A DNA stretch of 64,000 nucleotides, taken from the NCBI GenBank assembly GCA_000004985.1, contig GG738905.1, one strand, 5' to 3'. Under the pieces are notes generated by a model that had not been told where the DNA came from, did not search any database, and saw only the letters and a program-made list of their open reading frames with translations. The position numbers and the translations under genes were made by a program. Position 1 is the stretch's first letter. Each line of letters starts with the position of its first letter. Source of the stretch: Naegleria gruberi. Its lineage: Eukaryota. This document shows, piece by piece, positions 1-35,145 of the stretch.

Positions 1-489
1 TGAATTTTAGATAAACTTCTATTAGTATCTATTAGATTCTCATCCTTATTTTCATAAGTGATTCCATTATCATTTTGACATTCTGTATTTTCCAATTCTC
101 TTCAACACAACAAAATATTTGAACATCCACCACCAACATTCTACATCCACCACAATCAAAGAATATGCAAACACACCAGAACTATTTGATAATTTAAATG
201 CTTGATACTCTGTATCAGTTGATCCAATTAGATATGTTAATAATACTAACAATTCCAACAATGAATATCCAAATATTTCAATATTTATTCTCTATTATTA
301 CCACAGCTGACATTTTTTTATTAACTTATTAACAAGTGAGTTGTTATCATTTTTGGTTTATGGAAGTAGTCTTCAAAAGGTTATCATTGGAAATTCCAAC
401 ATTGAATTATCAATTTAAATATCTGAAATTATAATTGTCATCAATTCATCTAAATCATCTTCTAATCTTAATCTTCTAATCTTAATCAT

Positions 490-3400
490 CTAATCATCAT
501 TCCAATCAATATCTTGTTTAATTCTAAAATCAACCAACCAATTTTTAACTTTTTCTTTTAATTTTTGTCCATGTTCTTGTTTTTCTCTTTCAATTATATT
601 TAAATCCTTATTTAATTTTAATTTTTTAAAATAAAATCTTTTTAAATAATTTAAATAAAATTCATCTGATTTTTTCTTATTTTCAAATTTTTTAATTAAA
701 CGTTCTTCTTTTGAAAATCTAAATTTTTTAATCCATTCATTAAAATATTTTTTAATTTTTAAATTTCTTTCAAATTCAATTGATTCTTCATAATTATTTA
801 AATGTTCTTTTAAATTTAATTTTAATCCTTTTATGGATTTTGATAAATATTTTCTTTCTTTAATTAAAATTAATTTGTTAATTTTTTCTAATTTTAATTT
901 TTTACGTAATTCAACTTGATCATTAATATTTAATTTTAATCCAATAAATATTTTAATTTTTAATTTCTTTTCATAAATATTAATTGAATTTAATTCTTTT
1001 TCTTTCTTTTCTTTAATTAAATTTAATAATGGATTAAATATTTTCCTTTTTAATAAATTTAAATAAAAATTATCTGCTTTAATTTTTTTCATATTCATTT
1101 CTTGAATTAATTTTTCCTTTTCCAATTGTTTTAATTTTAATAATTCTTTTTCTTTTCTTTTTTCTTCAATTATTTGTTTTTTCCTTTCTTGTTCTTCTTC
1201 TTGTTTTTTCTTTTCTTCTTCCAATTTTAATTTCTAATTTTGTTTTAAATTAAATTAAATAATAAAACAACTTACTTCTTTTTCTTCTTCTTGTAATTTA
1301 TATTTATCTTGTAATTGTTTCCAACGTTCTTTTCTTTCATTAACTCTTTCTTCCATTGCTTTAAGAAATTGTGGTGTTTGTTGATTTGTTGTTGGTTGTT
1401 TTTTTAAATTAATTATATTCGTTGCTGTTGCTGTTGCTGTTGATTTTTCATTATTAGTATTATTACTACTATTTGTATTACTAATATTAGTAGAATTATT
1501 AGATATCTGATTAGAATCATTAATTAAAGAAGTATTTGGTGTAATAATATCACTATGATTACTTATAGTAGAGAGACTACTATTACTATTATTAATTATT
1601 ATATTATTGATAGATGAATGAGTTTCATTATTTAATTCTATTACTTGTTCATTATTGGAAGGAATTAAATCTTTTTCATTACTTGTATTACTTTCATTAA
1701 TATTTGAATTATTATTACTAGTATTTGTAGTATTTGTAGTATTTGAAATATTTCTCTTTTTCTTATTTTCATCATTAATTTTAGAATTAATTATTTGACC
1801 TCCACCACTATTATTTTTAATTTTCCTTCTTGATGTATTAATAATTTCCTGAGGTGTGTTTGTTGTATTATTAAAATAATTACTACTATTACCACCAATA
1901 GTATTATTACTTGTATTATTTGTAGAGCTATTACTATTATTAGTAATATTATTAGAATTATTTGATTCATTTAAAGTTAATTTTTCAATAAAATTATTCA
2001 TCATTTCTTTTCTCCTTAAATGTTGTTTTTCAATAATTTTTCTATCTCTTGATATTTTATATTGACATGTCCATTTAAGGAAATAATGTGATAATATTTT
2101 ACTTCTATGCATTTGATCTGCTGCTTGAATTCTTTTCTTTTCTAATAAAATTGTTTTTTGTATTTTAATTTCTTCTTGTTTTTCTTTTGCTAATTTCCAA
2201 TTTTGTAAAATTGATTTAAATGATTTTTTTTTAATTTTCCATTCATATAATGTCTATTTAAATATTTAAATATTAAATATTAAATTAAATATTTACCTTA
2301 ACTTTTAAAATCATTTGAAATCTTTTTTGACATTTTCTAAACCAAATATTAAATATTTTACTTTTTAAAGTTAAATTATTTGTATTAATTAAATCACTTG
2401 TCATTCTATTTAACATTTCATTTCTTTCCTTTTCATGTTCTTTTAATATTTTTAATTGTTGTTGTTTTAATTTTTCCATTTCCTCTTTCCTTTTTAAAAT
2501 TATTTAATTATTATTAAATATTATTCAAATACTTACATTTGCTGATTTTGTTTAATTGATTTTAATTCTTCCTTTTTAATTTGTTGAACTTGTTTTAATT
2601 TTGATTTTTCTTCTTCAATTTGTTTTTTAATTTTTAAAACTTCTTCTTCAGCTTTTCTCTTTTCATTTTCTGCAATAAATAATTCTTTTTGAGTTGTAAC
2701 ATAATTTGATGTTGATGGTTGTTGATTTGTTCCGATAGATGGTATTTCAACAATACGTTCTTTTTTAATTTTACTATTATTATTAGATGATGGATTTACA
2801 ACAGTATTAGGTGTTGTTGAATTATTAGAATTATTTGTATAATTAGTTCCCAATAATTTAGTTTTAAAAATGTTCATTTGTTGATCTAATGAATTATTAA
2901 TTAAATTTGTATTTAAAATTGAAGAAGGTACAATTGAGTTATCATTAAATTTAGGTTTTTCAATTGAATTCATTGTTGTCACTACTAAATGGTTTATATG
3001 AAAATAATGAATCTTTCTTTTCATCATTTGAAAATATTGATGATGTAAATTTAGATGAAGATGGTCCAATTATTTCATTTACAATATTATCATTATTATT
3101 ACTCATATCATATTTATCAAAATTAAATAAATCACATTGATTCATCATGGTTGAGTTGATGTTGTTGATTATCGGAAGAGTTTAAATCATTTTTTACAAG
3201 TTGAATTTTACTTTCAAAAGTTGGTTCTAAAACATTTAAAACAACAACATTCTTTTTACGTTCCATTGAAAGTCTTAATTTCTCCCATCTTGTTAATTCA
3301 GATGGTCTTTTATCTTTAATTTTATCCATTAATGGTGTATTTAATAATTGATTAGCAGATACTTGATCATCCGATAGTGTTGATTCAATAATTGATTTTG

Positions 3401-3842
3401 TTGTTATTGGATTAGTACTTTTTAATAGTGGATTTTCATTCCTAATTGATGATGTTGTTCTTTTAATTGATGATGATGATAAATTATTACTACTCATATT
3501 AAGACTAGTATTTAATATTAAATTATCTTTAATTTGAAGATTATCTTGTTGTTCTCTTGTTGTCCATTTAGTTATTAGATTTTTAGCCTCCAATCTTAAT
3601 CTTTCCTCACTTGAATTTACTTTTGTATTTACATTATTATTACCAATTCCTTTGATACTTAAATCGGAGGATGATCCTAATGTTGATGATGATGATGAAA
3701 TTAAAAGTGGATGTTGTTGAGGTGTTGTACTTCTATTACCTCTCATATTTGATGATGTTGTTGTATTGTTGGTAGTTGTACTTGATTGGGCGGGAATTGC
3801 TTGCCTCCTTGTACTTCCACCACTGCTCTGAGGTCTTTTCAT
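490..3842 (-). CDS. Multi-exon gene encoding a long K/E-rich coiled-coil protein with Asn/Ser/Thr low-complexity segments and Sfi1-like Trp-containing repeats. Product is unassigned. The 5' part is uncertain.
   Basis: Minus-strand ORFs 490-1224, 1255-2112, 2285-2479 and 2533-3069 join in frame through three short introns. Intron coordinates are about 1234-1275, 2254-2296 and 2490-2536. Each has a GTAAGT or GTAAAT donor and an AAATTAG, TTAAATAG or AAAAAG acceptor. The upstream ORFs 2960-3148 and 3132-3842 are in other frames and could not be joined cleanly. Repeated W-containing K/R-rich units (FNIWFRKCQKRF, HYFLKWTCQYK, LYEWKIKKK, FNEWIKKFRF, KNWLVDFRIKQD) resemble Sfi1 centrin-binding repeats. 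Confidence 0.5.
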
Positions 3843-3999
3843 TAATTTTTATTCAACTTGTTTCGTCTATTTAAATACAATGAAACACATTACTTGTAAT
3901 AATAATACCTTAATATTTTACACCATCATTGAACATCTCCAAATAATGACTCAACTAAGGTTACACTAACATATAAATTTAATTTTGGAATGTAAATAT

Positions 4000-5235
4000 T
4001 TATTGTTGATATTGTAACATATCATCATCTGAATCATGATCATTTTGTTGATTCTTTTGATTTTCTAAATAAGCTTTACCTCCTTGAACAGCCAGAGATG
4101 AGGCTGCTTTTCCACCTTTAACAGCTCCCTTAGCAAGTGTCATGAATCCAGAAGCAACCTTTTTTTGAACCTCCTTATTGGTTGCTGCATTAGCAATTGC
4201 TGTTCCTGCTTTTTGTTGGAATTCCTTATTACCAACAGTTTTAGAAATGGCTGTACCAACTGTTTGTTGAACTTGTTCATTTTGAGCAAATCCTGAAACA
4301 AGTTTGTTGTCAGTATTCTTTGAAATCATATTACCAACTGATTTTTGATATTCTCTATTATTTGAAGCATTAGAAACTGCTGATCCAACTCTTTCTTGAA
4401 CTTTTTCATTGTTTGCAAAATTGGCAACTCCTTGACCCACTTTTTCTTGAACTTGGTCATTATGAACTACTTTACCAACTCCACTATAAACCTTCTTTTC
4501 ATTTTCTGTCAAGTCAGAGGTATCTTCTTTATAGGTTTTCTTTGGTAATGGTGGTGGAGCTCTTCCACTACCACTACTGCTATGACTGTTGTTACCACTA
4601 TTGCTACTGCTACCACCAAGTGACAAGTTTGAAAAACTACTCAAAATACTGCCACTTCTTGATTGTTGTTGTGGTTGCTGTTGTGATACTACTGTATTAC
4701 TATTATTATAATTATAATTGTTAACAACATTATTATTAACTGGAGGTGGAGGAAGTGATGATTGTGGTTTTGGAATGAAAGGAGGTGGAGTTGAAGATTT
4801 TTGAGTTTGTTGTTGTTGAAGAAGTGATTGTGGAAGTGGAGGTGGAACTTTCTTAAAAGAAGGAGGTGGTAATTGACCACTATTAACAACATTATTCACT
4901 GAAGAACGTTCTTCTGGATATTTCTTAAATATTTCTTCTAATATTTGTCTCTTTTCTTCTTGAACAGTTGGTAATTTCTGAGCATTATATTCATACTCTT
5001 TAGCATAATTTGGATCATTAAATTGTGCATGTTCTGATGGTAATCTATGACAAACCAATAATTCATAGGCTTGTAAATAAATATAGCAATTTTCATAATC
5101 ATTAATTCTCTTATATTGACCTGCTTGTTTTAAATAGTTTGCTCCATCTTTAAAGTATTCGGATAATGATCTATTAGAATCAATTAATCCAATCTTTCTA
5201 GAAGCTGTTACATTTAATATATCTATTTTACCCAT
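4000..5235 (-). CDS. Protein with an AMSH/USP8-type N-terminal helical (MIT-like) domain, a Pro/Gln-rich linker and a C-terminal array of ~19-aa tandem repeats. No catalytic domain is present.
   Basis: Single 411-aa ORF. The N-terminus (YFKDGANYLKQAGQYKRINDYENCYIYLQAYELLVCHRLPSEHAQF) follows the USP8/AMSH N-terminal domain pattern. The C-terminus carries about six repeats of NxExVQxxVGxAxxN, visible as ~57-nt DNA repeats around 4140-4500. Confidence 0.55.
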   Translation of the reverse strand: MGKIDILNVTASRKIGLIDSNRSLSEYFKDGANYLKQAGQYKRINDYENCYIYLQAYELLVCHRLPSEHAQFNDPNYAKEYEYNAQKLPTVQEEKRQILEEIFKKYPEERSSVNNVVNSGQLPPPSFKKVPPPLPQSLLQQQQTQKSSTPPPFIPKPQSSLPPPPVNNNVVNNYNYNNSNTVVSQQQPQQQSRSGSILSSFSNLSLGGSSSNSGNNSHSSSGSGRAPPPLPKKTYKEDTSDLTENEKKVYSGVGKVVHNDQVQEKVGQGVANFANNEKVQERVGSAVSNASNNREYQKSVGNMISKNTDNKLVSGFAQNEQVQQTVGTAISKTVGNKEFQQKAGTAIANAATNKEVQKKVASGFMTLAKGAVKGGKAASSLAVQGGKAYLENQKNQQNDHDSDDDMLQYQQ

Positions 5236-26486: not shown

Positions 26487-27558
26487 GTGAAAGCAATATT
26501 GAAAAATTGTAAAATCAAACATTCCGATAATATATTTAAAAAATTTAATCACGGAATGTTAAAACAATCGGAAATTCATCAATTAAAAAAAATGAACGTT
26601 GATAAATTGAAGGAATTATGTGATGATGGTAAATTCTATGAAGCACAACAAATGTTTGTTGTTCTCTTCAACAAGACATTTAAACAAGAAAAGTATGATA
26701 AATGTGCTCAAATTTTATTATCGGGTTTAAATAAGATGCATCAATTTAAACAAGTAGCCTTGTTGATCGATCTTGCTAAATACATGCTTTCTCTTTTTAC
26801 TAAATTAAATGCTTCAACCACACATACATTCACAATCAAGGAAGATAAAATTACAGCAATAGGTTTGTATAATGAAAATGTATAGAAATATTATAACATT
26901 TTGATTTTACTCAGATCTTATTAGACATATTGTTGAATCGTATCATCAACTTGAAGATATAACACCAAAAGAAGATATTCAAAGAATGATTTCATTTTTG
27001 GATAAAGTAGTGACGTGGAGTGCTGAACATCAAGTTCCTAAAATTTCAGACAGTCACGGAGAACCTTTTATACATATGGAACTTGGAAAGCTTCACTTTA
27101 AATTAGGAGCTAATGAAGAAAGTAATAAGAATTTTTTGAAATCAAACTCACCAGACGAATTTGCTGAAATGATTTCTGAATGGATTAAAAAGGGAGAAGA
27201 TGGAGAACATGATTTATTCATTACTCGTGCTGTTTTGCAATTATTGCAATTAAAGAAATTGGAAATGGCTAAAAGAGTTTTTGAATTATTACAACAAAAA
27301 ACTGAAAAATTATCATCAACTCCACTTCTTCACTTTGTTAAATTTTTGATAATTTCTATTGAAAAAGGCAATTTGGAATTGTATCATCATATCAATCAAT
27401 CTTATGCAACTGAGCTCACTAGAAGGGATGCCAGCTTTAAAGATGTTTATCTTGACAAGATTGGAAGTATTTACTTTGGTTTACAAAAATCCAAACCACA
27501 AAATCAAGGACTTGGATCAATGATTAACTCATTGTTCTCTTCAATGATGTCAAAATAA
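26487..27558 (+). CDS. GET4: Golgi-to-ER traffic protein 4 (GET4/TRC35). Two exons.
   Basis: Exon 1 is 26487-26862, with donor G|GTTTGT. The intron is 26863-26914, with acceptor ttttactcAG. Exon 2 is 26915-27558. Matches to human GET4: DGKFYEAQQMFVVLF with GDYYEAHQMYRTLFF, LFITRAVLQLLQLKK with MFVAQAVLQFLCLKN, DVYLDKIGSIYFGL with NEYLDRIGQLFFGV, and GLGSMINSLFSSMM with GLLGNLLTSLMG. Confidence 0.8.
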
Positions 27559-28390: not shown

Positions 28391-30448
28391 TTACATGGAG
28401 AAATCCAAGAGATCTTGGTTGGCTGGTTGAGTTTTGGTGGGATTGGATTCATTGTCATCGATTTGATTGATTGAAGAATCAGAAGTGTTAAATAGATCTT
28501 GACTATCAACTTGAATAATCTCTTCAGTTAATAGTTTGTAATTTTGGATAATGAATGCAGCGGCTTTGAATTTTGGAGTAATACCTTCTTTATCACCACA
28601 ATCATCTTTTACACTTCTTTGACTTGGAATTTTAGTGGAAAGTAATAAATGAGAGAAAATCATTGACAAGTCCTTAATATTTTGTTCTGTAGTGGTATAA
28701 GCATCACTAACCATACACAAAAATTCACAAACTCTATACAATATGTGAACATTATCTTTTGGAAGTGTTTTGATAAATTCTTTGAGGGCAACTATTTTTT
28801 CTTCAAATGTTAAATTGGTTGCATTACAGAGGTCAATCATCTTTCTGTAATATTGAGATGTTAAAATTGGTTCTGGAAGTGATTCCAAAAAGTAGCATAT
28901 TAAAGATGCTACTGAATAAGGTGATGTATCGTGGTCTGACAATAAATCTTGCTCATCATGAATATGTCCATGATCAAAATTGAGCATTAATCTAAGCATT
29001 AATGTATCTTGCATGTCGTAATTTGTGGAAAATAATTTTGGAAACTCTAAAGCAGCACTCTTTTTAAGATAACTCACACAAATATCGATCATATGTCTAC
29101 TTCTTTCATCAATTTCAACTCCAAACATTGGATTTGAAGTGGTACCATTCAAGTAAATCATTGATGAATAAGCATAAGACGATCCAGATCTTCCTCCAAG
29201 AACTATTAATCTATTGTTGAAAATTAATGTTTGAGCATTAACTATTGTACATTCAGGTGATCCAATACCTGCAGTAGAAAGGTTATAATTTCTAATATTA
29301 TATATAAGTACATCATCCAAAATTGGTTCTCTCATAGTTAGCAGAGATCTAGGTCTATCCAATAATTCACCTCCAACTATGAAAATAAAATCATCAAAAA
29401 TATCTGCCGAGCCCCATCTAGCTGGAATAAGATCCATCATGTCAGATCTTCTAGGAATTAGTCCTGATATTTGCCAATTACCACTGGCAATATCATATTC
29501 CAAAATTTCCTTAAATGGAACATCTTCACCTCGTTCACTTGTTCCACATCCACCAACTACATAGAATTTTTCTCTCTTTTCACATAAAACCATCATGTGA
29601 CCATATCTACCTGGTCTTGCAGGTGATTTGAGTTGTTTCCATACATTTAATTTGGTATCAAACATCCAAAAATCATTGAGAGGTTCAGGAATTGCTCTTT
29701 TCAAATTTTGGAGTGATAAATAATATCCTAATCCTTTTGGTTGTTGATTAATTGAATAATTAAAACCTTCACCTCCATAAACATATAAGTTTCCTTTGAA
29801 AGAACAAGCAGAATGATATCTTCTTGGTTTTGGTATTGGTAAATCGAGAGGTGTTCTGATTCTTTGAATTGTATTTTGAGATAAATCAATATCATAAATA
29901 TATGGATCATATTGAGTATTAACATCTGATGTACTTTTTCCAGACAATCCTTTGAAGAAATTATTTAAATTAGTACCGACACTTGATGGATTATAACCAA
30001 TTTGTCCGCCATACAATAGTAATCTATTTTCATAAATTTGATTCACTGTGTGATGGGCTCTTGGTCTTTGTTCAAATTCCGCAATAATATTAGGATCTTC
30101 TTCCTTTGCCAATTGTAATTTTACAAATTTCCAGTCCAATTTTTCAACATAATATAAATGCAATGGATTTTGAAATTGATTAAATCTAGTCTTTCCTCCA
30201 TGAACATAAAATCTATTCGGATCCTTATGTCCTTTAATATGAACGGCAGCAAATCCCTCCGATGGAAATGGAGCAAATTCATCTCTAATCATGTACATAT
30301 CATCGTTGTGCAATATTTGCCATATATTTACAGGTTTACTTGGTGATTCTGCTCCGGGCACTCCATCTGTTGTATTCAAAAAGTAGGCTATTGATTTTTC
30401 AAAGGCTGTATTAATTCCATTAGAGAGTTGATCGATGGGATTCTGCAT
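28391..30448 (-). CDS. Kelch/galactose-oxidase-type beta-propeller fused to a C-terminal RhoGAP-like domain.
   Basis: 685-aa intronless ORF. The N-terminal two-thirds has repeated propeller blades with GG motifs (RFYVHGGK, LLLYGGQIG, NLYVYGGEG, KFYVVGGCG, IFIVGGELL, LIVLGGRSG). The C-terminus has RhoGAP-like helices (PYSVASLICYFLESLPEPILT, VHILYRVCEFLCMV, NIKDLSMIFSHLLL). No obvious GxFRxSG arginine-finger motif sits at the expected position (the sequence there is EFPKLFSTNYD). Confidence 0.6.
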   Translation of the reverse strand: MQNPIDQLSNGINTAFEKSIAYFLNTTDGVPGAESPSKPVNIWQILHNDDMYMIRDEFAPFPSEGFAAVHIKGHKDPNRFYVHGGKTRFNQFQNPLHLYYVEKLDWKFVKLQLAKEEDPNIIAEFEQRPRAHHTVNQIYENRLLLYGGQIGYNPSSVGTNLNNFFKGLSGKSTSDVNTQYDPYIYDIDLSQNTIQRIRTPLDLPIPKPRRYHSACSFKGNLYVYGGEGFNYSINQQPKGLGYYLSLQNLKRAIPEPLNDFWMFDTKLNVWKQLKSPARPGRYGHMMVLCEKREKFYVVGGCGTSERGEDVPFKEILEYDIASGNWQISGLIPRRSDMMDLIPARWGSADIFDDFIFIVGGELLDRPRSLLTMREPILDDVLIYNIRNYNLSTAGIGSPECTIVNAQTLIFNNRLIVLGGRSGSSYAYSSMIYLNGTTSNPMFGVEIDERSRHMIDICVSYLKKSAALEFPKLFSTNYDMQDTLMLRLMLNFDHGHIHDEQDLLSDHDTSPYSVASLICYFLESLPEPILTSQYYRKMIDLCNATNLTFEEKIVALKEFIKTLPKDNVHILYRVCEFLCMVSDAYTTTEQNIKDLSMIFSHLLLSTKIPSQRSVKDDCGDKEGITPKFKAAAFIIQNYKLLTEEIIQVDSQDLFNTSDSSINQIDDNESNPTKTQPANQDLLDFSM

Positions 30449-30564: not shown

Positions 30565-31707
30565 TTATTTATTTTGATTATTGTTGGTATTGTACCATCT
30601 GAAAACATATTTGATATATTCATAAGTTGTCCATGTGACAGCTGCTGAAGGTGTGAAATAAACAACTCTAGGTATAGATCCTCTAAAGAGATTTTTAAGT
30701 AATCCTCCTTCTTCTTTCCTCAATAACGAAATTGCTTCCTTAACAGTATCTGCTTGACCTACTTGTAAAAGAGTTTTCACAACATCAAATGGATTGGAAA
30801 CGAGTCCACCAACTGCACCTGCTGCACCACCTGCCATGAAATGCTTTACATGTTTCCATTCATCGTGGTCATGATCATGGTCATCGTGGTGATGGTCGTG
30901 GTCGTGGTGGTCGTGGTCATGATGGTCAAATAATTTCTTTTTCATATATTCATAAGTCACAAAGTGGAAACTAGTATATGGAATATTCATCAAAATTGTA
31001 GTTGGTAAACTGACAAAGAATGCTCTAAGACCTCTTGTGGCATAAATTTCACGTGTTGCACTCATTAAATTATAATTTTGAACATGACCTTTCAATTGCT
31101 TTAAATATTTCAGTAAAAAAACTATTTGAAAAATAGACAACATACCATATGTTGCTTAATAACATCTGTTGGAGTTGCAATACCATCATGTGCAATAGTT
31201 GCTGCAATACCAGCAAGTGCACTAACACTCCAATCATTAACATATTGAGTTTGACGTCCTTGTAAAATATTTTTAACAGCTTCATAAGTTGTGAAATAAA
31301 ATGCATGAGATGGTAAAGCTCCATATAACACAACAGTCAATCCACTATAAAAATTACGAATTCCTCCAATAGATTTAATACTTTTAAATATTCCTTGATT
31401 ACTCGATTGAACATAAGTCTTGATAGTATCAATTGGATACATTACTAAATTTCCACACAATTATGTCAAATTAATTAAAGAATCAAAATTTACCTGCGTG
31501 TTCAACTAAGCCGGCCATAGCACCAGCAGTCATATATTGCATTGGATTACCTTTTAATTCATCATTATCTTCCATTTCTTCAACGTGTGTCAAATAAACT
31601 GGTTGTTTTACACCTTGATTTAAACGACTTGTTGAATTAATTTCCTCCTCTTCCACTGTGGAACGATCCTTCCTCCTTGATAATTTATCTTGATTATAAT
31701 TATTCAT
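30565..31707 (-). CDS. Mitochondrial carrier, mitoferrin-like (iron importer family), with a His/Asp-rich loop. Three exons.
   Basis: Exon 1 is 31707-31494 with a GTAAAT donor. Intron 31445-31493. Exon 2 is 31444-31146 with a GTATGT donor. Intron 31099-31145. Exon 3 is 31098-30565. The spliced protein reads ...[30 protein letters not shown]..., matching the mitoferrin N-terminal carrier repeat. Further carrier signatures follow. Exon 3 carries an HHDHDHHDHDHHHDDHDHDHDE insertion. Confidence 0.7.
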
Positions 31708-33051: not shown

Positions 33052-35145
33052 ATGAATTACATTAGACAGAGATTTTTATTGGTTGTTTTGTTGTTGGTAA
33101 TTGTTAGCACTATACCTTCTTCGGAATGTAAAATTAACAAACAAGAATTTGATCCAAATAATTTTTTTAACTTTGTACAAATAACAGATGTTCATATTGA
33201 AGATTTCACATCATTGTTAAATAGACCTTCATTTCTAAAGGAAGCACAAGAAAGGTACAATGATTATATTACACTAACTCAGAATATATTACCAAATTTT
33301 GTAAAACCTCATGTAATAACAATAACAGGTGATTTAACTCATGCAATTGCTCTGAATTTTGCTAACAGATCATTGGACTGGATTGACCGAAAGATAAATA
33401 TCTATGTTCCTGGACAATGTGAAGAACAATGGGAGTTTTATTCAAATATTACAAATCTTGCTAATGAACAGTTAGTTAATTCAATGAAAAATTCACACAG
33501 CTCAATCAAGATTGTTTATCCATTTGAGGAGGATATTTCAAATCAAAGAATATTTGATTTACCAGGAAACCATGATGCATTTGGTGTTAGTAATAAGATG
33601 GATGAAAACAAATGGCTATTTTTGAAATATTCTAAAAGTGCAAAGTTTTTTAATAACGGTCAATTTTATGTTTTTGATTTGAAAAATAATTTTGGAAAAT
33701 TTAGATATTTAATGTTTGACTCAACTCCAATAATTGGAAGTTATAGACCTGTGAATTTTTTCTCTTCAATTCAAATTTCACAATTGAGAAAACTTGAAGA
33801 ATTTTTGAGTAGTAACTCTGAAGGAATTTCACAAACATTTGCTTTTGGCCACTATCCATCATCAATGATTTCAATTATTGAGAATGATGGATCTGTATCT
33901 AATACTTATACAATTCAAGATTTTTACAAAAGATTTAATATTATTTCATATTTTAGTGGACATTTACATAAGGAATTCTTTGAAATGTCAAAATATATGC
34001 CAAAGAGTGGACATATTGAAATTCAAAGTCCTGATTTTAAAAAGGAGAGAAGTTTTAAAATTATAACAATGGATAATAATAGAATTGGGTTTAAGGATTT
34101 TACTGTTAGCGAACTGGAGAAAAAACCAGGAGTAATTATTTCGCATCCAAAGGATTGTAGATTTATCACTGATAGAGAGCCAAAAGTGTTCAATGATAAT
34201 TTCATTAGATTATTCATCGTTTATCCATATAATATTGAAAGTGACAAGTTGAATGTTATTGTAAAGCTTGATGGAAATGTTATGGATGAAAATCTCATAA
34301 TAACTAGAGGCCAATCCGAGTATAGAATCAATTTTGATTTCAATAATTTACCAAATGATTCCTCTATCCACAAAATAACTGTAGAATTTGATGGAAGCTC
34401 CATAGTTGAACATTTATTTACAAAGGATGATTCACTTTGTGAACCAGTAAATCTCTCACGCACAGATACAATAAGGTCATTTATTTCATGGTGCGTTTTG
34501 AGCTTGGATTGGAGAACAATATTTAGAGATGTTACTCATTACTCTTGTATTGCATCTGTATTCATATTATTAGCATCAAAATTTATGTTTTTAAGGAGAG
34601 TTACATTTATTGAAGTGATATCACTAGTGCTCCAATCTGTTTCTATGAGATATGGTCTTTGGTTTTTAGGAGTACTAACTGAAGATAATAGATTTGGAGG
34701 ATTACTCAATTTAACATACTTTTACTTTAATTCTGATCCAATCAATACACTAGAACCTATTCACAAATTGGAGCCATTCACTGCTCTCTCAGCTCATTTC
34801 AATAGAGTTACCATTATTGATGACAGCTCTCTATTTTTCACACTTATTGGTCCAACTTTCGTTTTCTCACATTTGGCAATTATTATTGGATACCTATTAT
34901 TGGAATGTCTCGACAGGATTGAAAGCAGATATCACAAAAAATATTTCAAATTGAGAATACTCTTATTTCTAATTATTTCCATTTCTCATATGGTTGGATT
35001 TTTCAATTTCTATAGAAAATATGTTAGATCATATGGCAAAATTGTCTTATTCACATCATTTAACAATGTAATGTTCCCATTTTTGAATATGTCAATAATG
35101 GCAGCTCGAACATACAACGATTGTACAAAGCAAAAAGTTGAATAA
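33052..35145 (+). CDS. Calcineurin-like metallophosphoesterase membrane protein (TMEM62 / PGAP5-Cdc1 family-like).
   Basis: N-terminal signal/TM segment (LLVVLLLVIVSTIPSS). Metallophosphoesterase motifs VQITDVHIED, ITGDLTH, GNHD and GHLHKE. The C-terminal third has multiple predicted TM helices. Confidence 0.6.
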   Translation: MNYIRQRFLLVVLLLVIVSTIPSSECKINKQEFDPNNFFNFVQITDVHIEDFTSLLNRPSFLKEAQERYNDYITLTQNILPNFVKPHVITITGDLTHAIALNFANRSLDWIDRKINIYVPGQCEEQWEFYSNITNLANEQLVNSMKNSHSSIKIVYPFEEDISNQRIFDLPGNHDAFGVSNKMDENKWLFLKYSKSAKFFNNGQFYVFDLKNNFGKFRYLMFDSTPIIGSYRPVNFFSSIQISQLRKLEEFLSSNSEGISQTFAFGHYPSSMISIIENDGSVSNTYTIQDFYKRFNIISYFSGHLHKEFFEMSKYMPKSGHIEIQSPDFKKERSFKIITMDNNRIGFKDFTVSELEKKPGVIISHPKDCRFITDREPKVFNDNFIRLFIVYPYNIESDKLNVIVKLDGNVMDENLIITRGQSEYRINFDFNNLPNDSSIHKITVEFDGSSIVEHLFTKDDSLCEPVNLSRTDTIRSFISWCVLSLDWRTIFRDVTHYSCIASVFILLASKFMFLRRVTFIEVISLVLQSVSMRYGLWFLGVLTEDNRFGGLLNLTYFYFNSDPINTLEPIHKLEPFTALSAHFNRVTIIDDSSLFFTLIGPTFVFSHLAIIIGYLLLECLDRIESRYHKKYFKLRILLFLIISISHMVGFFNFYRKYVRSYGKIVLFTSFNNVMFPFLNMSIMAARTYNDCTKQKVE

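What the first reader, a model, noticed from the sequence alone, without database searches (positions are those of the whole stretch)
30565..31707. Mitoferrin-like carrier carrying an HHDHDHHDHDHHHDDHDHDHDE insertion
The three-exon carrier matches mitoferrin at its N-terminal repeat ([27 protein letters not shown]). It also contains a 22-residue loop made only of His, Asp and Glu. This is encoded by an imperfect CAT/GAT trinucleotide repeat around 30880-30950 on the + strand. His/Asp clusters are classic metal-binding (Fe/Zn/Ni) sequences. Placing one in an iron-importer homologue suggests a metal-sensing or metal-capturing loop, or alternatively a replication-slippage expansion.
Basis: partly seen in the sequence, partly recalled or inferred. 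Interest (0 to 1): 0.5.

Follow-up and report, generated by a model that had tools for sequence, protein, structure and literature searches.

The report
Naegleria mitoferrin with His/Asp loop
This is the single mitochondrial iron-importer (mitoferrin) gene of the amoeba Naegleria gruberi, and it carries a 23-residue loop made only of histidine, aspartate and glutamate that faces the side iron arrives from, is kept in all three sequenced Naegleria species, and probably acts as a metal-catching arm, though that has not been tested.

Summary
The gene lies on the minus strand (3 exons, 30565-31707, 348 aa) and is identical to the NCBI model for Naegleria gruberi. The run is 23 residues (229-251, DHHDHDHHDHDHHHDDHDHDHDE), encoded at 30859-30927.

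The protein is a true mitoferrin orthologue. It has three Mito_carr repeats and all the mitoferrin-specific residues (E69-H70, H118, H157-D158, M208-N209, H257). It falls on the mitoferrin side of an NJ tree in 200 of 200 bootstraps.

The loop joins helix 4 to helix 5, so it faces the intermembrane space. It ends five residues before the conserved entry histidine H257.

N. lovaniensis (20 aa) and N. fowleri (18 aa, identical in three assemblies) carry it at the same place. It stays pure His/Asp/Glu although synonymous sites are saturated, which neutral point mutation cannot explain.

Willaertia has a (H-x)8 C-terminal tail instead, and Acrasis a His-rich H2-H3 loop. All 16 His-rich segments found in mitoferrins face the intermembrane space. 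None was found in 148 other carriers (6/150 vs 0/148, p = 0.03).

Best reading: a slippage-born, selectively kept metal-capture loop analogous to ZnT/ZIP His-loops. Metal binding and any effect on transport are inferred, not shown. New variant of a known kind; moderate interest.

The parts
31494..31707 (-). Exon 1 (ATG at 31707; residues 1-71 plus the first base of codon 72). Holds a poorly conserved N-terminal extension and the start of helix 1, including E69-H70 (31503-31498).
   Evidence: splice model gives a 1047-nt in-frame CDS; 100% identical to the NCBI N. gruberi protein; residues 1-43 have low pLDDT.
31445..31493 (-). Intron 1, 49 nt, GT..AG, phase 1
   Evidence: The intron position is conserved in N. 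lovaniensis and N. fowleri.
31146..31444 (-). Exon 2 (residues 72-171): rest of helix 1, matrix loop 1, helix 2 with H118 (31307-31305), the C1 loop, and helix 3 with H157-D158 and the second PX[DE]XX[KR] motif
31099..31145 (-). Intron 2, 47 nt, GT..AG, phase 0
30565..31098 (-). Exon 3 (residues 172-348 plus the TAA stop): matrix loop 2, helix 4 with contact-point M208-N209 (30990-30985), the His/Asp loop, helix 5, matrix loop 3, helix 6 and an Asn-rich C-terminal tail
30859..30927 (-). The His/Asp/Glu run, residues 229-251 (DHHDHDHHDHDHHHDDHDHDHDE). It is an imperfect GAY/CAY codon repeat forming a disordered loop between helix 4 and helix 5, facing the intermembrane space.
   Evidence: sequence and codons; helix 4 ends at residue 229 and helix 5 starts at 253, with loop pLDDT about 54-58 and below 50 at 240-243; conserved in N. 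lovaniensis and N. fowleri; composition kept despite saturated synonymous divergence.
30841..30843 (-). Codon of H257, the conserved histidine at the intermembrane-space end of helix 5, five residues after the loop. From my recollection of the yeast sequence it corresponds to Mrs3 H222.
   Evidence: His in 53% of mitoferrin-like sequences at this column against 7% of other carriers; alignment.

Best explanation
The gene is the single mitoferrin (SLC25A28/37, Mrs3/4-type mitochondrial Fe2+ importer) of Naegleria gruberi.

Its loop between transmembrane helices 4 and 5 sits at the rim of the carrier's mouth on the intermembrane-space side. That loop has been expanded into a flexible 23-residue stretch made only of His, Asp and Glu.

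The stretch most likely arose by slippage of a GAC-CAC-type codon repeat. It has since been kept by selection on its composition.

The proposed mechanism is inferred, not shown. The alternating imidazole and carboxylate side chains would bind divalent metal weakly and multivalently. This would raise the local Fe2+ concentration at the carrier entrance. The metal would then pass to the conserved entry histidine H257 five residues downstream, and onward to the in-pore ligands (H70, H118, M208-N209).

This is the role demonstrated for the cis-side His-loop of the zinc transporter ZnT7. A regulatory role is a sub-variant that the data cannot separate from capture. In that variant a metal-loaded loop would gate the carrier or alter its stability.
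For: SHOWN

Mitoferrin identity:
- Pfam finds three Mito_carr repeats, E = 5e-56.
- The best non-heterolobosean hits are all annotated mitoferrin or SLC25A28/37, at E about 1e-46. S-adenosylmethionine carriers follow at about 1e-20.
- Mitoferrin-specific residues are all present: E69-H70, H118, H157-D158, M208-N209 and H257. They occur in 53-95% of 219 mitoferrin-like sequences and in 1-9% of 151 other carriers.
- NJ bootstrap places the protein on the mitoferrin side in 200 of 200 replicates.
- The N. fowleri orthologue was published as mitoferrin and rises 1.8-fold on iron starvation (PMC7326272).
- It is the only Naegleria protein in the mitoferrin group.

Topology:
- The AlphaFold model (pLDDT 82, pTM 0.79) has the canonical six helices and three matrix helices. 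The run lies between H4 (202-229) and H5 (253-284) and has low confidence.
- The fold matches UCP1 and the ADP/ATP carrier.

Conservation:
- The same loop is present in N. lovaniensis (20 aa) and N. fowleri (18 aa, identical in three assemblies). The downstream neighbours are syntenic and the introns are conserved.
- Four-fold sites differ at 62-63% between N. gruberi and the other two species, which is saturation (JC K of at least 1.3).
- In simulation, a 23-codon loop stays pure H/D/E with P about 1e-4 at only 0.2 neutral substitutions per site.
- Third codon positions are scrambled (8 T, 14 C), yet no codon encodes anything but H, D or E.

Positional turnover within the clade:
- Willaertia lacks the loop run but has a C-terminal (H-x)8 tail with fixed His and variable spacers.
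- Acrasis has HHDFHHHHHHEH in the H2-H3 loop.
- Other heterolobosean-like sequences (P0141, P0191) have long H/D/E H4-H5 loops.

Survey:
- All 16 His-rich segments found in 197 mitoferrin-like proteins lie in intermembrane-space-facing parts. None lies in a matrix loop.
- In the word-index-free representative search, 6 of 150 mitoferrin representatives carry one, against 0 of 148 other carriers (Fisher p = 0.03).

INFERRED
- Metal binding and hand-off to H257 are inferred by analogy with ZnT7. Its flexible TM4-TM5 His-loop binds two Zn2+ and is needed for efficient transport (PMC10409766).
Against: No experiment or computation here shows that the loop binds metal or affects transport.

Slippage with repeated expansion and contraction can by itself regenerate compositional purity. 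The Asn-rich C-terminal tail of the same protein is also compositionally conserved across the three species, so low complexity can persist without an obvious role.

The enrichment statistic is modest (p = 0.03). The control carriers are not taxonomically matched and were drawn from a different clustering level.

The positional statistics weaken under conservative counting. If the heterolobosean H4-H5 loops count as one origin, P(no segment in matrix loops) is about 0.05 and the excess in the H4-H5 loop is not significant.

Matrix loops contain short structured helices and may simply tolerate low-complexity inserts less well.

Most mitoferrins, including the well-studied yeast, fish, fly and human proteins, work without such a segment, so it is not required for iron transport.

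No population data could be found to test length polymorphism within N. gruberi.
Confidence: 0.5

Rival explanations
1. Neutral low-complexity expansion. The run is a replication-slippage product in a permissive surface loop. It is tolerated but has no role, and its purity is maintained by ongoing expansion and contraction rather than by selection.
For: - The DNA is an imperfect GAY/CAY codon repeat with short perfect sub-repeats.
- Length differs between species (23, 20, 18 aa) and the order of H and D is not conserved.
- The loop is disordered in the model.
- Willaertia lacks it at this position.
- The Asn-rich C-terminal tail also persists compositionally.
- Most mitoferrins lack any such segment (144 of 150 representatives).
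Against: - Synonymous sites are saturated between N. gruberi and its relatives, yet none of the 61 loop codons in the three species encodes a residue other than H, D or E.
- Homogenisation by slippage should also homogenise third codon positions, and these are scrambled.
- The loop is identical in three N. fowleri assemblies.
- Relatives that lack it carry a His-rich segment at another intermembrane-space-facing site.
- The Willaertia tail keeps His at every second position while the spacers vary, which is not a simple repeat.
- 0 of 148 other carriers have such a segment.
Confidence: 0.25
2. Metal sensor or regulator rather than capture arm. Metal occupancy of the loop would gate the carrier (auto-inhibition at high metal), or mark it for turnover by an intermembrane-space protease. 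This would resemble the His-rich loop of the plant transporter IRT1, or the Fe-S-binding matrix loop of SLC25A39.
For: - A carrier of the same family, SLC25A39, uses a loop with four cysteines to sense Fe-S clusters and control its degradation by AFG3L2 (bioRxiv 10.1101/2023.11.06.565855).
- In ZnT7, excess Zn2+ is proposed to immobilise the His-loop away from the transport site.
- N. fowleri mitoferrin abundance responds to iron supply.
- The loop's position at the mouth of the carrier would allow it to act as a lid.
Against: Nothing in the sequence distinguishes sensing from capture. No degron or protease-recognition feature was identified. The 1.8-fold induction in N. fowleri could be transcriptional. 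His-rich segments that sit in C-terminal tails (Willaertia, P0135, Teleaulax) are less well placed to act as a lid.
Confidence: 0.15
3. Selectivity or protection element. The loop would preferentially bind Zn2+, Cu2+ or Ni2+ and keep these competitors out of a carrier that is otherwise promiscuous. Alternatively it would act as a pH-responsive element in the intermembrane space.
For: - Reconstituted fish mitoferrin-1 transports Fe, Mn, Co, Cu and Zn and is inhibited by Ni, so it is poorly selective (PMC11381811).
- His-rich loops affect metal preference in a Plasmodium ZIP transporter (PMC11578967).
- From general chemistry: His/Asp sites bind Zn, Cu and Ni more tightly than Fe2+, and His titrates near intermembrane-space pH.
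Against: No direct evidence. Tight binding of Zn or Cu at the carrier mouth could as easily promote their import.
Confidence: 0.1

Closest known systems
Mitoferrins (SLC25A28/37; yeast Mrs3/Mrs4; trypanosomatid MIT1/MCP17; N. fowleri NF0079420)
   Same: Same family and almost certainly the same job. It has three carrier repeats, the PX[DE]XX[KR] and [FY][DE]XX[KR] networks, contact-point M-N, and the conserved histidines of helices 1, 2 and 5. The N. fowleri orthologue is published as mitoferrin and is induced by iron starvation.
   Different: The characterised mitoferrins have a short H4-H5 loop. Here it is expanded by a 23-residue pure His/Asp/Glu run. In addition, the Arg that usually follows each PX[DE]XX[KR] motif is lost in all three repeats. 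No paper in the searchable library describes a His-rich segment in a mitoferrin.
His-rich loop of CDF/ZnT zinc transporters (for example human ZnT7, TM4-TM5 His-loop)
   Same: Both are flexible, disordered, His-rich loops between two transmembrane helices, on the side from which the metal is taken up. In ZnT7 the loop binds about two Zn2+, is needed for efficient transport, and is proposed to hand metal to the transmembrane site (PMC10409766). The position and composition here suggest the same logic.
   Different: The fold and family are unrelated (CDF versus SLC25). The presumed metal differs (Zn2+ versus Fe2+). The compartment differs (cytosol versus intermembrane space). The function is demonstrated for ZnT7 and only inferred here.
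(HX)n motifs of ZIP transporters (IRT1 HGHGHGH; Plasmodium ZIP1 His-rich loop)
   Same: Alternating His-x repeats in an extramembrane segment of a divalent-metal transporter. The Willaertia (H-x)8 tail and the Teleaulax (HG/HD)n tail are of exactly this type. Such loops influence metal preference or sensing.
   Different: In ZIP importers the main His-rich loop is on the exit (cytosolic) side. Here it is on the entry side. The fold is also different.
SLC25A39 matrix loop 1 (Fe-S-sensing insertion in a mitochondrial carrier)
   Same: It is a precedent for a lineage-specific, metal-ligand-rich loop insertion in an SLC25 carrier that links the carrier to iron status.
   Different: That loop uses cysteines binding an Fe-S cluster, faces the matrix, and controls degradation by AFG3L2 in a glutathione carrier. 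The loop here is His/Asp, faces the intermembrane space, and sits in the iron carrier itself.

Membership tests
Mitochondrial carrier family (SLC25, Pfam PF00153) | Three tandem Mito_carr repeats of about 100 residues | tested here: met
   Pfam PF00153 matches three stretches, E = 4.7e-56, 186.9 bits against a cut-off of 22.3.
Mitochondrial carrier family (SLC25, Pfam PF00153) | PX[DE]XX[KR] on each odd helix and [FY][DE]XX[KR] on each even helix | tested here: met
   PIDTIK at 75, PTDVIK at 163 and PFDVVK at 274; YEAVK at 125, YEYMK at 220 and YEYIK at 330.
Mitochondrial carrier family (SLC25, Pfam PF00153) | Six-helix barrel with three short matrix helices, and both termini on the intermembrane-space side | tested here: met
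   AlphaFold model, pLDDT 82 and pTM 0.79, with H1-H6 and h12/h34/h56 in canonical order. Foldseek top hits are UCP1 and the ADP/ATP carrier, with TM-score up to 0.78 when normalised by target length. The orientation in the membrane follows from established carrier structures and was not measured here.
Mitoferrin subfamily (SLC25A28/37, Mrs3/4) | Contact-point II residues M-N on helix 4, described as the signature of iron-transporting carriers in PMC4704735 | tested here: met
   M208-N209 in LMNIPY. M and N occur in 84% and 86% of mitoferrin-like sequences and in 2% of other carriers.
Mitoferrin subfamily (SLC25A28/37, Mrs3/4) | Three conserved histidines needed for iron transport in Mrs3/4 (Brazzolotto 2014, as summarised in PMC10003640) | tested here: met
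   H70, H118 and H257 are present. The corresponding columns are His in 92%, 95% and 53% of mitoferrin-like sequences, against 1%, 9% and 7% of other carriers. The mapping to Mrs3 H48, H105 and H222 rests on my recollection of the yeast sequence, because the original paper was not held.
Mitoferrin subfamily (SLC25A28/37, Mrs3/4) | Groups with known mitoferrins to the exclusion of other carriers | tested here: met
   Best hits are annotated mitoferrins, with a gap of about 25 orders of magnitude to the next family. In the NJ tree, 16 named mitoferrins separate from 20 named other carriers in 199 of 200 bootstraps, and this protein falls on the mitoferrin side in 200 of 200. Caveat: this is a distance method on an alignment fitted to a mitoferrin profile.
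Mitoferrin subfamily (SLC25A28/37, Mrs3/4) | Fe2+ transport across the inner mitochondrial membrane; mitochondrial localisation | not testable with these tools
   Only indirect evidence exists. The N. fowleri orthologue was detected in membrane fractions and rose under iron starvation (PMC7326272).
His-rich metal-binding loops of metal transporters (ZnT/CDF His-loop, ZIP (HX)n); a functional class, not a homologous family | Extramembrane, flexible segment with clustered or alternating His, plus Asp/Glu/Gly/Ser spacers | tested here: met
   13 His, 9 Asp and 1 Glu in 23 residues. The segment lies between H4 and H5 and has low pLDDT.
His-rich metal-binding loops of metal transporters (ZnT/CDF His-loop, ZIP (HX)n); a functional class, not a homologous family | Binds the transported metal and modulates transport or regulation | not testable with these tools
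The analogy is to ZnT7.

The most novel reading that the evidence does not exclude
A His-rich 'antenna' facing the intermembrane space may be a recurrent, selected accessory module of protist mitoferrins. It would be able to move between the H2-H3 loop, the H4-H5 loop and the C-terminal tail while always staying on the iron-entry side. If so, it would be the first extramembrane metal-binding element described for the SLC25 metal importers. It would also give a natural handle on the open question of how, and in what form, iron is delivered to mitoferrin in the intermembrane space.
Probability: 0.4. Interest if true: 0.6.

Novelty: new variant of a known kind. Interest (0 to 1): 0.45.

Why it matters
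Mitoferrin is the main route of iron into mitochondria. How it acquires iron on the intermembrane-space side, and from what donor, is not settled, and no structure of any mitoferrin is in the PDB.

A selectively maintained His/Asp loop at the carrier's mouth, next to the conserved entry histidine, would be a natural experiment. Deleting or transplanting it could show whether local metal capture limits mitochondrial iron import.

The organism adds practical interest. The loop is present in the brain-eating amoeba N. fowleri, whose mitoferrin is induced on iron starvation and whose iron handling has been proposed as a drug target (PMC7326272). The human orthologues lack the loop.

If the loop turns out to be neutral, it is still a clean example of a coding microsatellite keeping its composition across saturated divergence.

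Tried and rejected
(1) An unspliced intron or gene-model artefact was rejected. The run is in frame and about 50% G+C, whereas the two real introns are far more A+T-rich. It has no GT..AG boundaries. It is part of the independent NCBI model and is retained in the orthologues.

(2) Bias from the word-indexed search was addressed. The query's HDHDH words could pull in H/D-rich proteins. The survey was therefore repeated with a profile search that has no word index and in which the loop columns are not profile positions.

(3) A metagenome scan for closer Naegleria relatives or alleles found nothing above 34% identity, so no population or length-polymorphism data were obtained.

(4) The PDB sequence and fold searches found only ADP/ATP carriers, UCPs and similar proteins, and no mitoferrin structure.

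(5) The primary papers on the three histidines (Brazzolotto 2014) and on reconstituted mitoferrin-1 (Christenson 2018) are not held. Their content was taken from papers that summarise them.

(6) The first two NJ attempts failed. One had a missing sequence and the other a distance formula undefined above about 85% difference. They were fixed by capping the distance.

(7) Two His-rich hits are of doubtful value. P0049 has poly-His beside poly-(CV) and looks like an assembly artefact. P0138 ends in D7-H6 (seven Asp followed by six His), which could be natural or a tag. Excluding them does not change the picture.

(8) The organisms behind P0141, P0149, P0191 and P0031 could not be named from the records returned.

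(9) The positional statistics were recomputed with heterolobosean H4-H5 loops counted as one origin (my arithmetic from the insert counts). They then become only suggestive: P about 0.05 for absence from matrix loops, and about 0.1 for the excess in the H4-H5 loop. With the less conservative count they are 0.03 and 0.003.
Full report
WHAT IS THERE

The interval 30565-31707 holds a three-exon gene on the minus strand. The exons are 31707..31494, 31444..31146 and 31098..30565, and the GT..AG introns are 49 and 47 nt. The spliced CDS is 1047 nt and encodes 348 residues. That protein is 100% identical over its full length to the NCBI model XP_002671468 / EFC38724, 'predicted protein [Naegleria gruberi]'. 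The window is therefore N. gruberi nuclear DNA, about 30-35% G+C.

The acidic/His run is residues 229-251, DHHDHDHHDHDHHHDDHDHDHDE. That is 23 residues: 13 His, 9 Asp and 1 Glu. It is encoded at 30859-30927 by a mixture of GAC, GAT, CAC and CAT codons plus one GAA. Tandem Repeats Finder sees only imperfect periodicity (70-84% matches, periods 6-21). It is the only such run in all six reading frames of the window.

WHAT THE PROTEIN IS

Pfam finds three Mito_carr repeats (E = 5e-56). The three PX[DE]XX[KR] motifs and the three [FY][DE]XX[KR] motifs are present.

Outside the Heterolobosea, the best database hits are all annotated mitoferrin or SLC25A28/37 (flies, fungi, plants, trypanosomes), at E about 1e-46 to 1e-33. 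S-adenosylmethionine carriers follow only at about 1e-20.

I aligned 219 mitoferrin-like and 151 other carriers to one profile. The N. gruberi protein has every residue that distinguishes mitoferrins:
- E69-H70 on helix 1: 94% and 92% in mitoferrins, 3% and 1% in others.
- H118 on helix 2: 95% against 9%.
- H157-D158 on helix 3: 65% and 91% against 1% and 1%.
- M208-N209 on helix 4, the contact-point pair called the signature of iron-transporting carriers in PMC4704735: 84% and 86% against 2% and 2%.
- H257 at the start of helix 5: 53% against 7%.

A neighbour-joining tree separates 16 named mitoferrins from 20 named other carriers in 199 of 200 bootstraps. This protein falls on the mitoferrin side in 200 of 200.

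No second Naegleria protein appears in the mitoferrin group. The N. fowleri orthologue (P0121) corresponds to the protein published as mitoferrin NF0079420, which rises 1.8-fold under iron starvation. That paper's text does not comment on the loop (PMC7326272). I treat mitoferrin orthology as settled.

WHERE THE LOOP SITS

An AlphaFold model built on 38 homologues has pLDDT 82 and pTM 0.79 and gives the canonical carrier architecture:
- H1 55-86
- H2 107-133
- H3 143-173
- H4 202-229
- H5 253-284
- H6 312-346

A short matrix helix lies between each odd-even helix pair. The model superposes on UCP1 and the ADP/ATP carrier.

The run fills the whole H4-H5 connection and is the only low-confidence stretch inside the barrel (pLDDT about 54-58, below 50 at 240-243). 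By the established topology of the family, loops joining an even helix to the following odd helix, and both termini, face the intermembrane space. The loop therefore sits on the rim of the cavity through which substrate enters.

It ends five residues before H257. From my recollection of the yeast sequence, H257 corresponds to Mrs3 H222, one of the three histidines proposed to form a ladder of iron ligands across the carrier cavity (summarised in PMC10003640).

IS IT CONSERVED?

N. lovaniensis has EHDDHHDHDHHDHHHDHDED (20 aa) and N. fowleri has EHDDHDDHDHHHHDHDED (18 aa) at the same place. The N. fowleri loop is identical in the reference protein and in two independent assemblies.

These are positional orthologues. 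The downstream neighbours, a Kelch-RhoGAP gene and then GET4, are shared, and both intron positions are conserved.

Divergence is deep. Outside the loop, 23% of residues differ between N. gruberi and the other two species. Four-fold degenerate sites differ at 62-63%, which is saturation (JC K of at least 1.3). N. lovaniensis and N. fowleri differ by K = 0.28.

In simulation, a 23-codon loop remains pure H/D/E with probability about 0.01 at 0.1 neutral substitutions per site, and about 1e-4 at 0.2. The real distance per lineage is several times larger. Yet none of the 61 loop codons in the three species encodes any other residue, while third positions are scrambled (8 T and 14 C in N. gruberi; 11 and 7, and 11 and 5, in the others).

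Neutral point mutation alone cannot explain this. Slippage-driven homogenisation could restore purity, but it should also homogenise synonymous positions, and it has not. The most economical reading is a slippage origin followed by selection on composition.

BEYOND NAEGLERIA

Willaertia magna is the next relative (64% identity over profile columns). It has an ordinary H4-H5 loop but ends in DDHSHDHNHDHNHEHSHEHENKK. This is a strict (H-x)8 in which His is fixed and the spacer varies among S, D, N and E. It is encoded by non-repetitive codons in a single ORF.

Acrasis kona has HHDFHHHHHHEH in the H2-H3 loop. Other sequences that cluster with these (P0141, P0191, and more weakly P0143 and P0004) have H/D/E-rich H4-H5 loops.

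Further away, related proteins again differ in where the segment sits. P0149 has it in the H4-H5 loop and P0031 has it in the C-terminal tail. Long His-rich C-terminal tails also occur in Teleaulax (P0013), P0135 and a mucoralean fungus.

To avoid bias from the word-indexed search, I ran a profile search with no word index. The loop columns are not profile positions in that search.
- 6 of the best 150 representatives carry a segment with at least 6 His in 12 residues.
- This undercounts. Several clusters whose representative lacks such a segment have members that carry one: Naegleria/Willaertia, Acrasis, Teleaulax and Chlamydoabsidia.
- Among 148 non-mitoferrin carriers from two searches, none has one, even under a relaxed criterion. 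Fisher p = 0.03.

All 16 His-rich segments in 197 mitoferrin-like proteins lie in intermembrane-space-facing parts. None lies in a matrix loop, although matrix loops hold 23% of all non-profile residues.

Even outside this clade, the two intermembrane-space loops of mitoferrins are richer in His (8.5% and 4.3%) and in acidic residues than the matrix loops (about 2% His).

These statistics are modest:
- The control set is not taxonomically matched.
- If the heterolobosean H4-H5 loops count as one origin, the positional tests are only suggestive (P about 0.05-0.1).

HOW IT MOST LIKELY WORKS

Shown: identity, topology, conservation and recurrence.

Inferred: the His/Asp loop is a weak, multivalent divalent-metal binding site tethered at the entrance of the carrier. 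It would concentrate Fe2+ there and pass it to H257 and then to the in-pore ligands.

The closest demonstrated analogue is human ZnT7. Its flexible His-rich loop between TM4 and TM5, on the uptake side, binds about two Zn2+. Its histidines are needed for efficient transport, and it is proposed to deliver Zn2+ to the transmembrane site (PMC10409766).

A regulatory version cannot be separated from capture with sequence data. In that version the metal-loaded loop acts as a gate or stability signal. Precedents are the Fe-S-sensing matrix loop of SLC25A39 and the immobilised ZnT7 loop at high zinc.

A selectivity role is also possible, because reconstituted mitoferrin-1 is promiscuous among divalent metals (PMC11381811).

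The neutral-slippage reading remains alive at roughly one in four.

COMPARISON WITH WHAT IS KNOWN, AND NOVELTY

The gene is a member of a well-known family, and its N. fowleri orthologue is already named in the literature. What appears undescribed is the His/Asp loop and its pattern across protist mitoferrins. Four full-text searches combining mitoferrin or mitochondrial carrier with histidine-rich terms found no paper that attributes such a segment to a mitoferrin. The library is incomplete, so this is absence of evidence only.

I rate it a new variant of a known kind: a mitoferrin with a ZnT/ZIP-style His-loop on its entry side.

VERDICT

Interest is moderate (0.45). The case for selection is reasonably good. 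The mechanism is plausible and directly testable, but nothing about metal binding or transport has been shown.

Noticed in passing
window 31464-31462, 31151-31149, 30771-30769 (codons Y82, H170, L281): In all three Naegleria mitoferrins, the basic residue two places after the salt-bridge Lys of each PX[DE]XX[KR]X[KR] motif is replaced (KTYVQ, KQHMQ, KTLLQ). The same columns are Arg in 150, 207 and 135 of 219 mitoferrin-like sequences. Willaertia keeps Arg only in repeat 1.
   Followed up: partly
window 28391-30448 (-) and 26986-27558 (+): The genes downstream of the carrier are a 685-aa Kelch-repeat plus RhoGAP protein and a GET4 homologue. This order is shared with N. lovaniensis, and the Kelch-RhoGAP neighbour also with N. 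fowleri. The upstream side differs: a Metallophos-domain ORF at 33052-35145 (+) here, COG5 in N. lovaniensis and N. fowleri.
   Followed up: partly
L002 7096-7158 (Willaertia magna orthologue, C-terminal tail): The tail DDHSHDHNHDHNHEHSHEHEN is a strict (His-x)8 with variable spacers (S, D, N, E) and non-repetitive codons. This looks like selection on His periodicity rather than a simple repeat.
   Followed up: partly
mitoferrin-like proteins in general, H2-H3 loop (N. gruberi residues 134-142; window about 31259-31233): Across 188 non-heterolobosean mitoferrin-like sequences, the short H2-H3 intermembrane-space loop is 8.5% His (many carry G-H-H-P) and the H4-H5 loop is 17-18% Asp+Glu. Matrix loops have about 2% His. 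The entry face of mitoferrins is therefore generally His-rich and acidic.
   Followed up: partly
window 31707-31545 (residues 1-54): The N-terminal extension before helix 1 has low model confidence and is poorly conserved. N. gruberi has about 14 extra residues (QDKLSRRKDRSTVE) relative to N. lovaniensis and N. fowleri. A conserved acidic motif THVEE(M/L)EDxxELKGNP precedes helix 1.
   Followed up: no
window 30565-30600 (C-terminal tail): The Asn-rich C-terminal tail (NTNNNQNK; NNENQEKK; NNSNNSNGNQEKK) is compositionally conserved in the three Naegleria species. This is a reminder that low-complexity composition can persist without an obvious function.
   Followed up: no
window 1-4000: The first 4 kb of the window are markedly more A+T-rich (20-23% G+C) than the rest (about 28-35%), with strongly negative AT skew.
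   Followed up: no
P0154 (mitoferrin-like representative), H4-H5 loop: This protein carries a roughly 60-residue insertion in the same loop, ending in DGHHSHADDDDDDDGHDH. It is another long, acidic, His-containing expansion at this site that fell below the His-rich threshold used.
   Followed up: no
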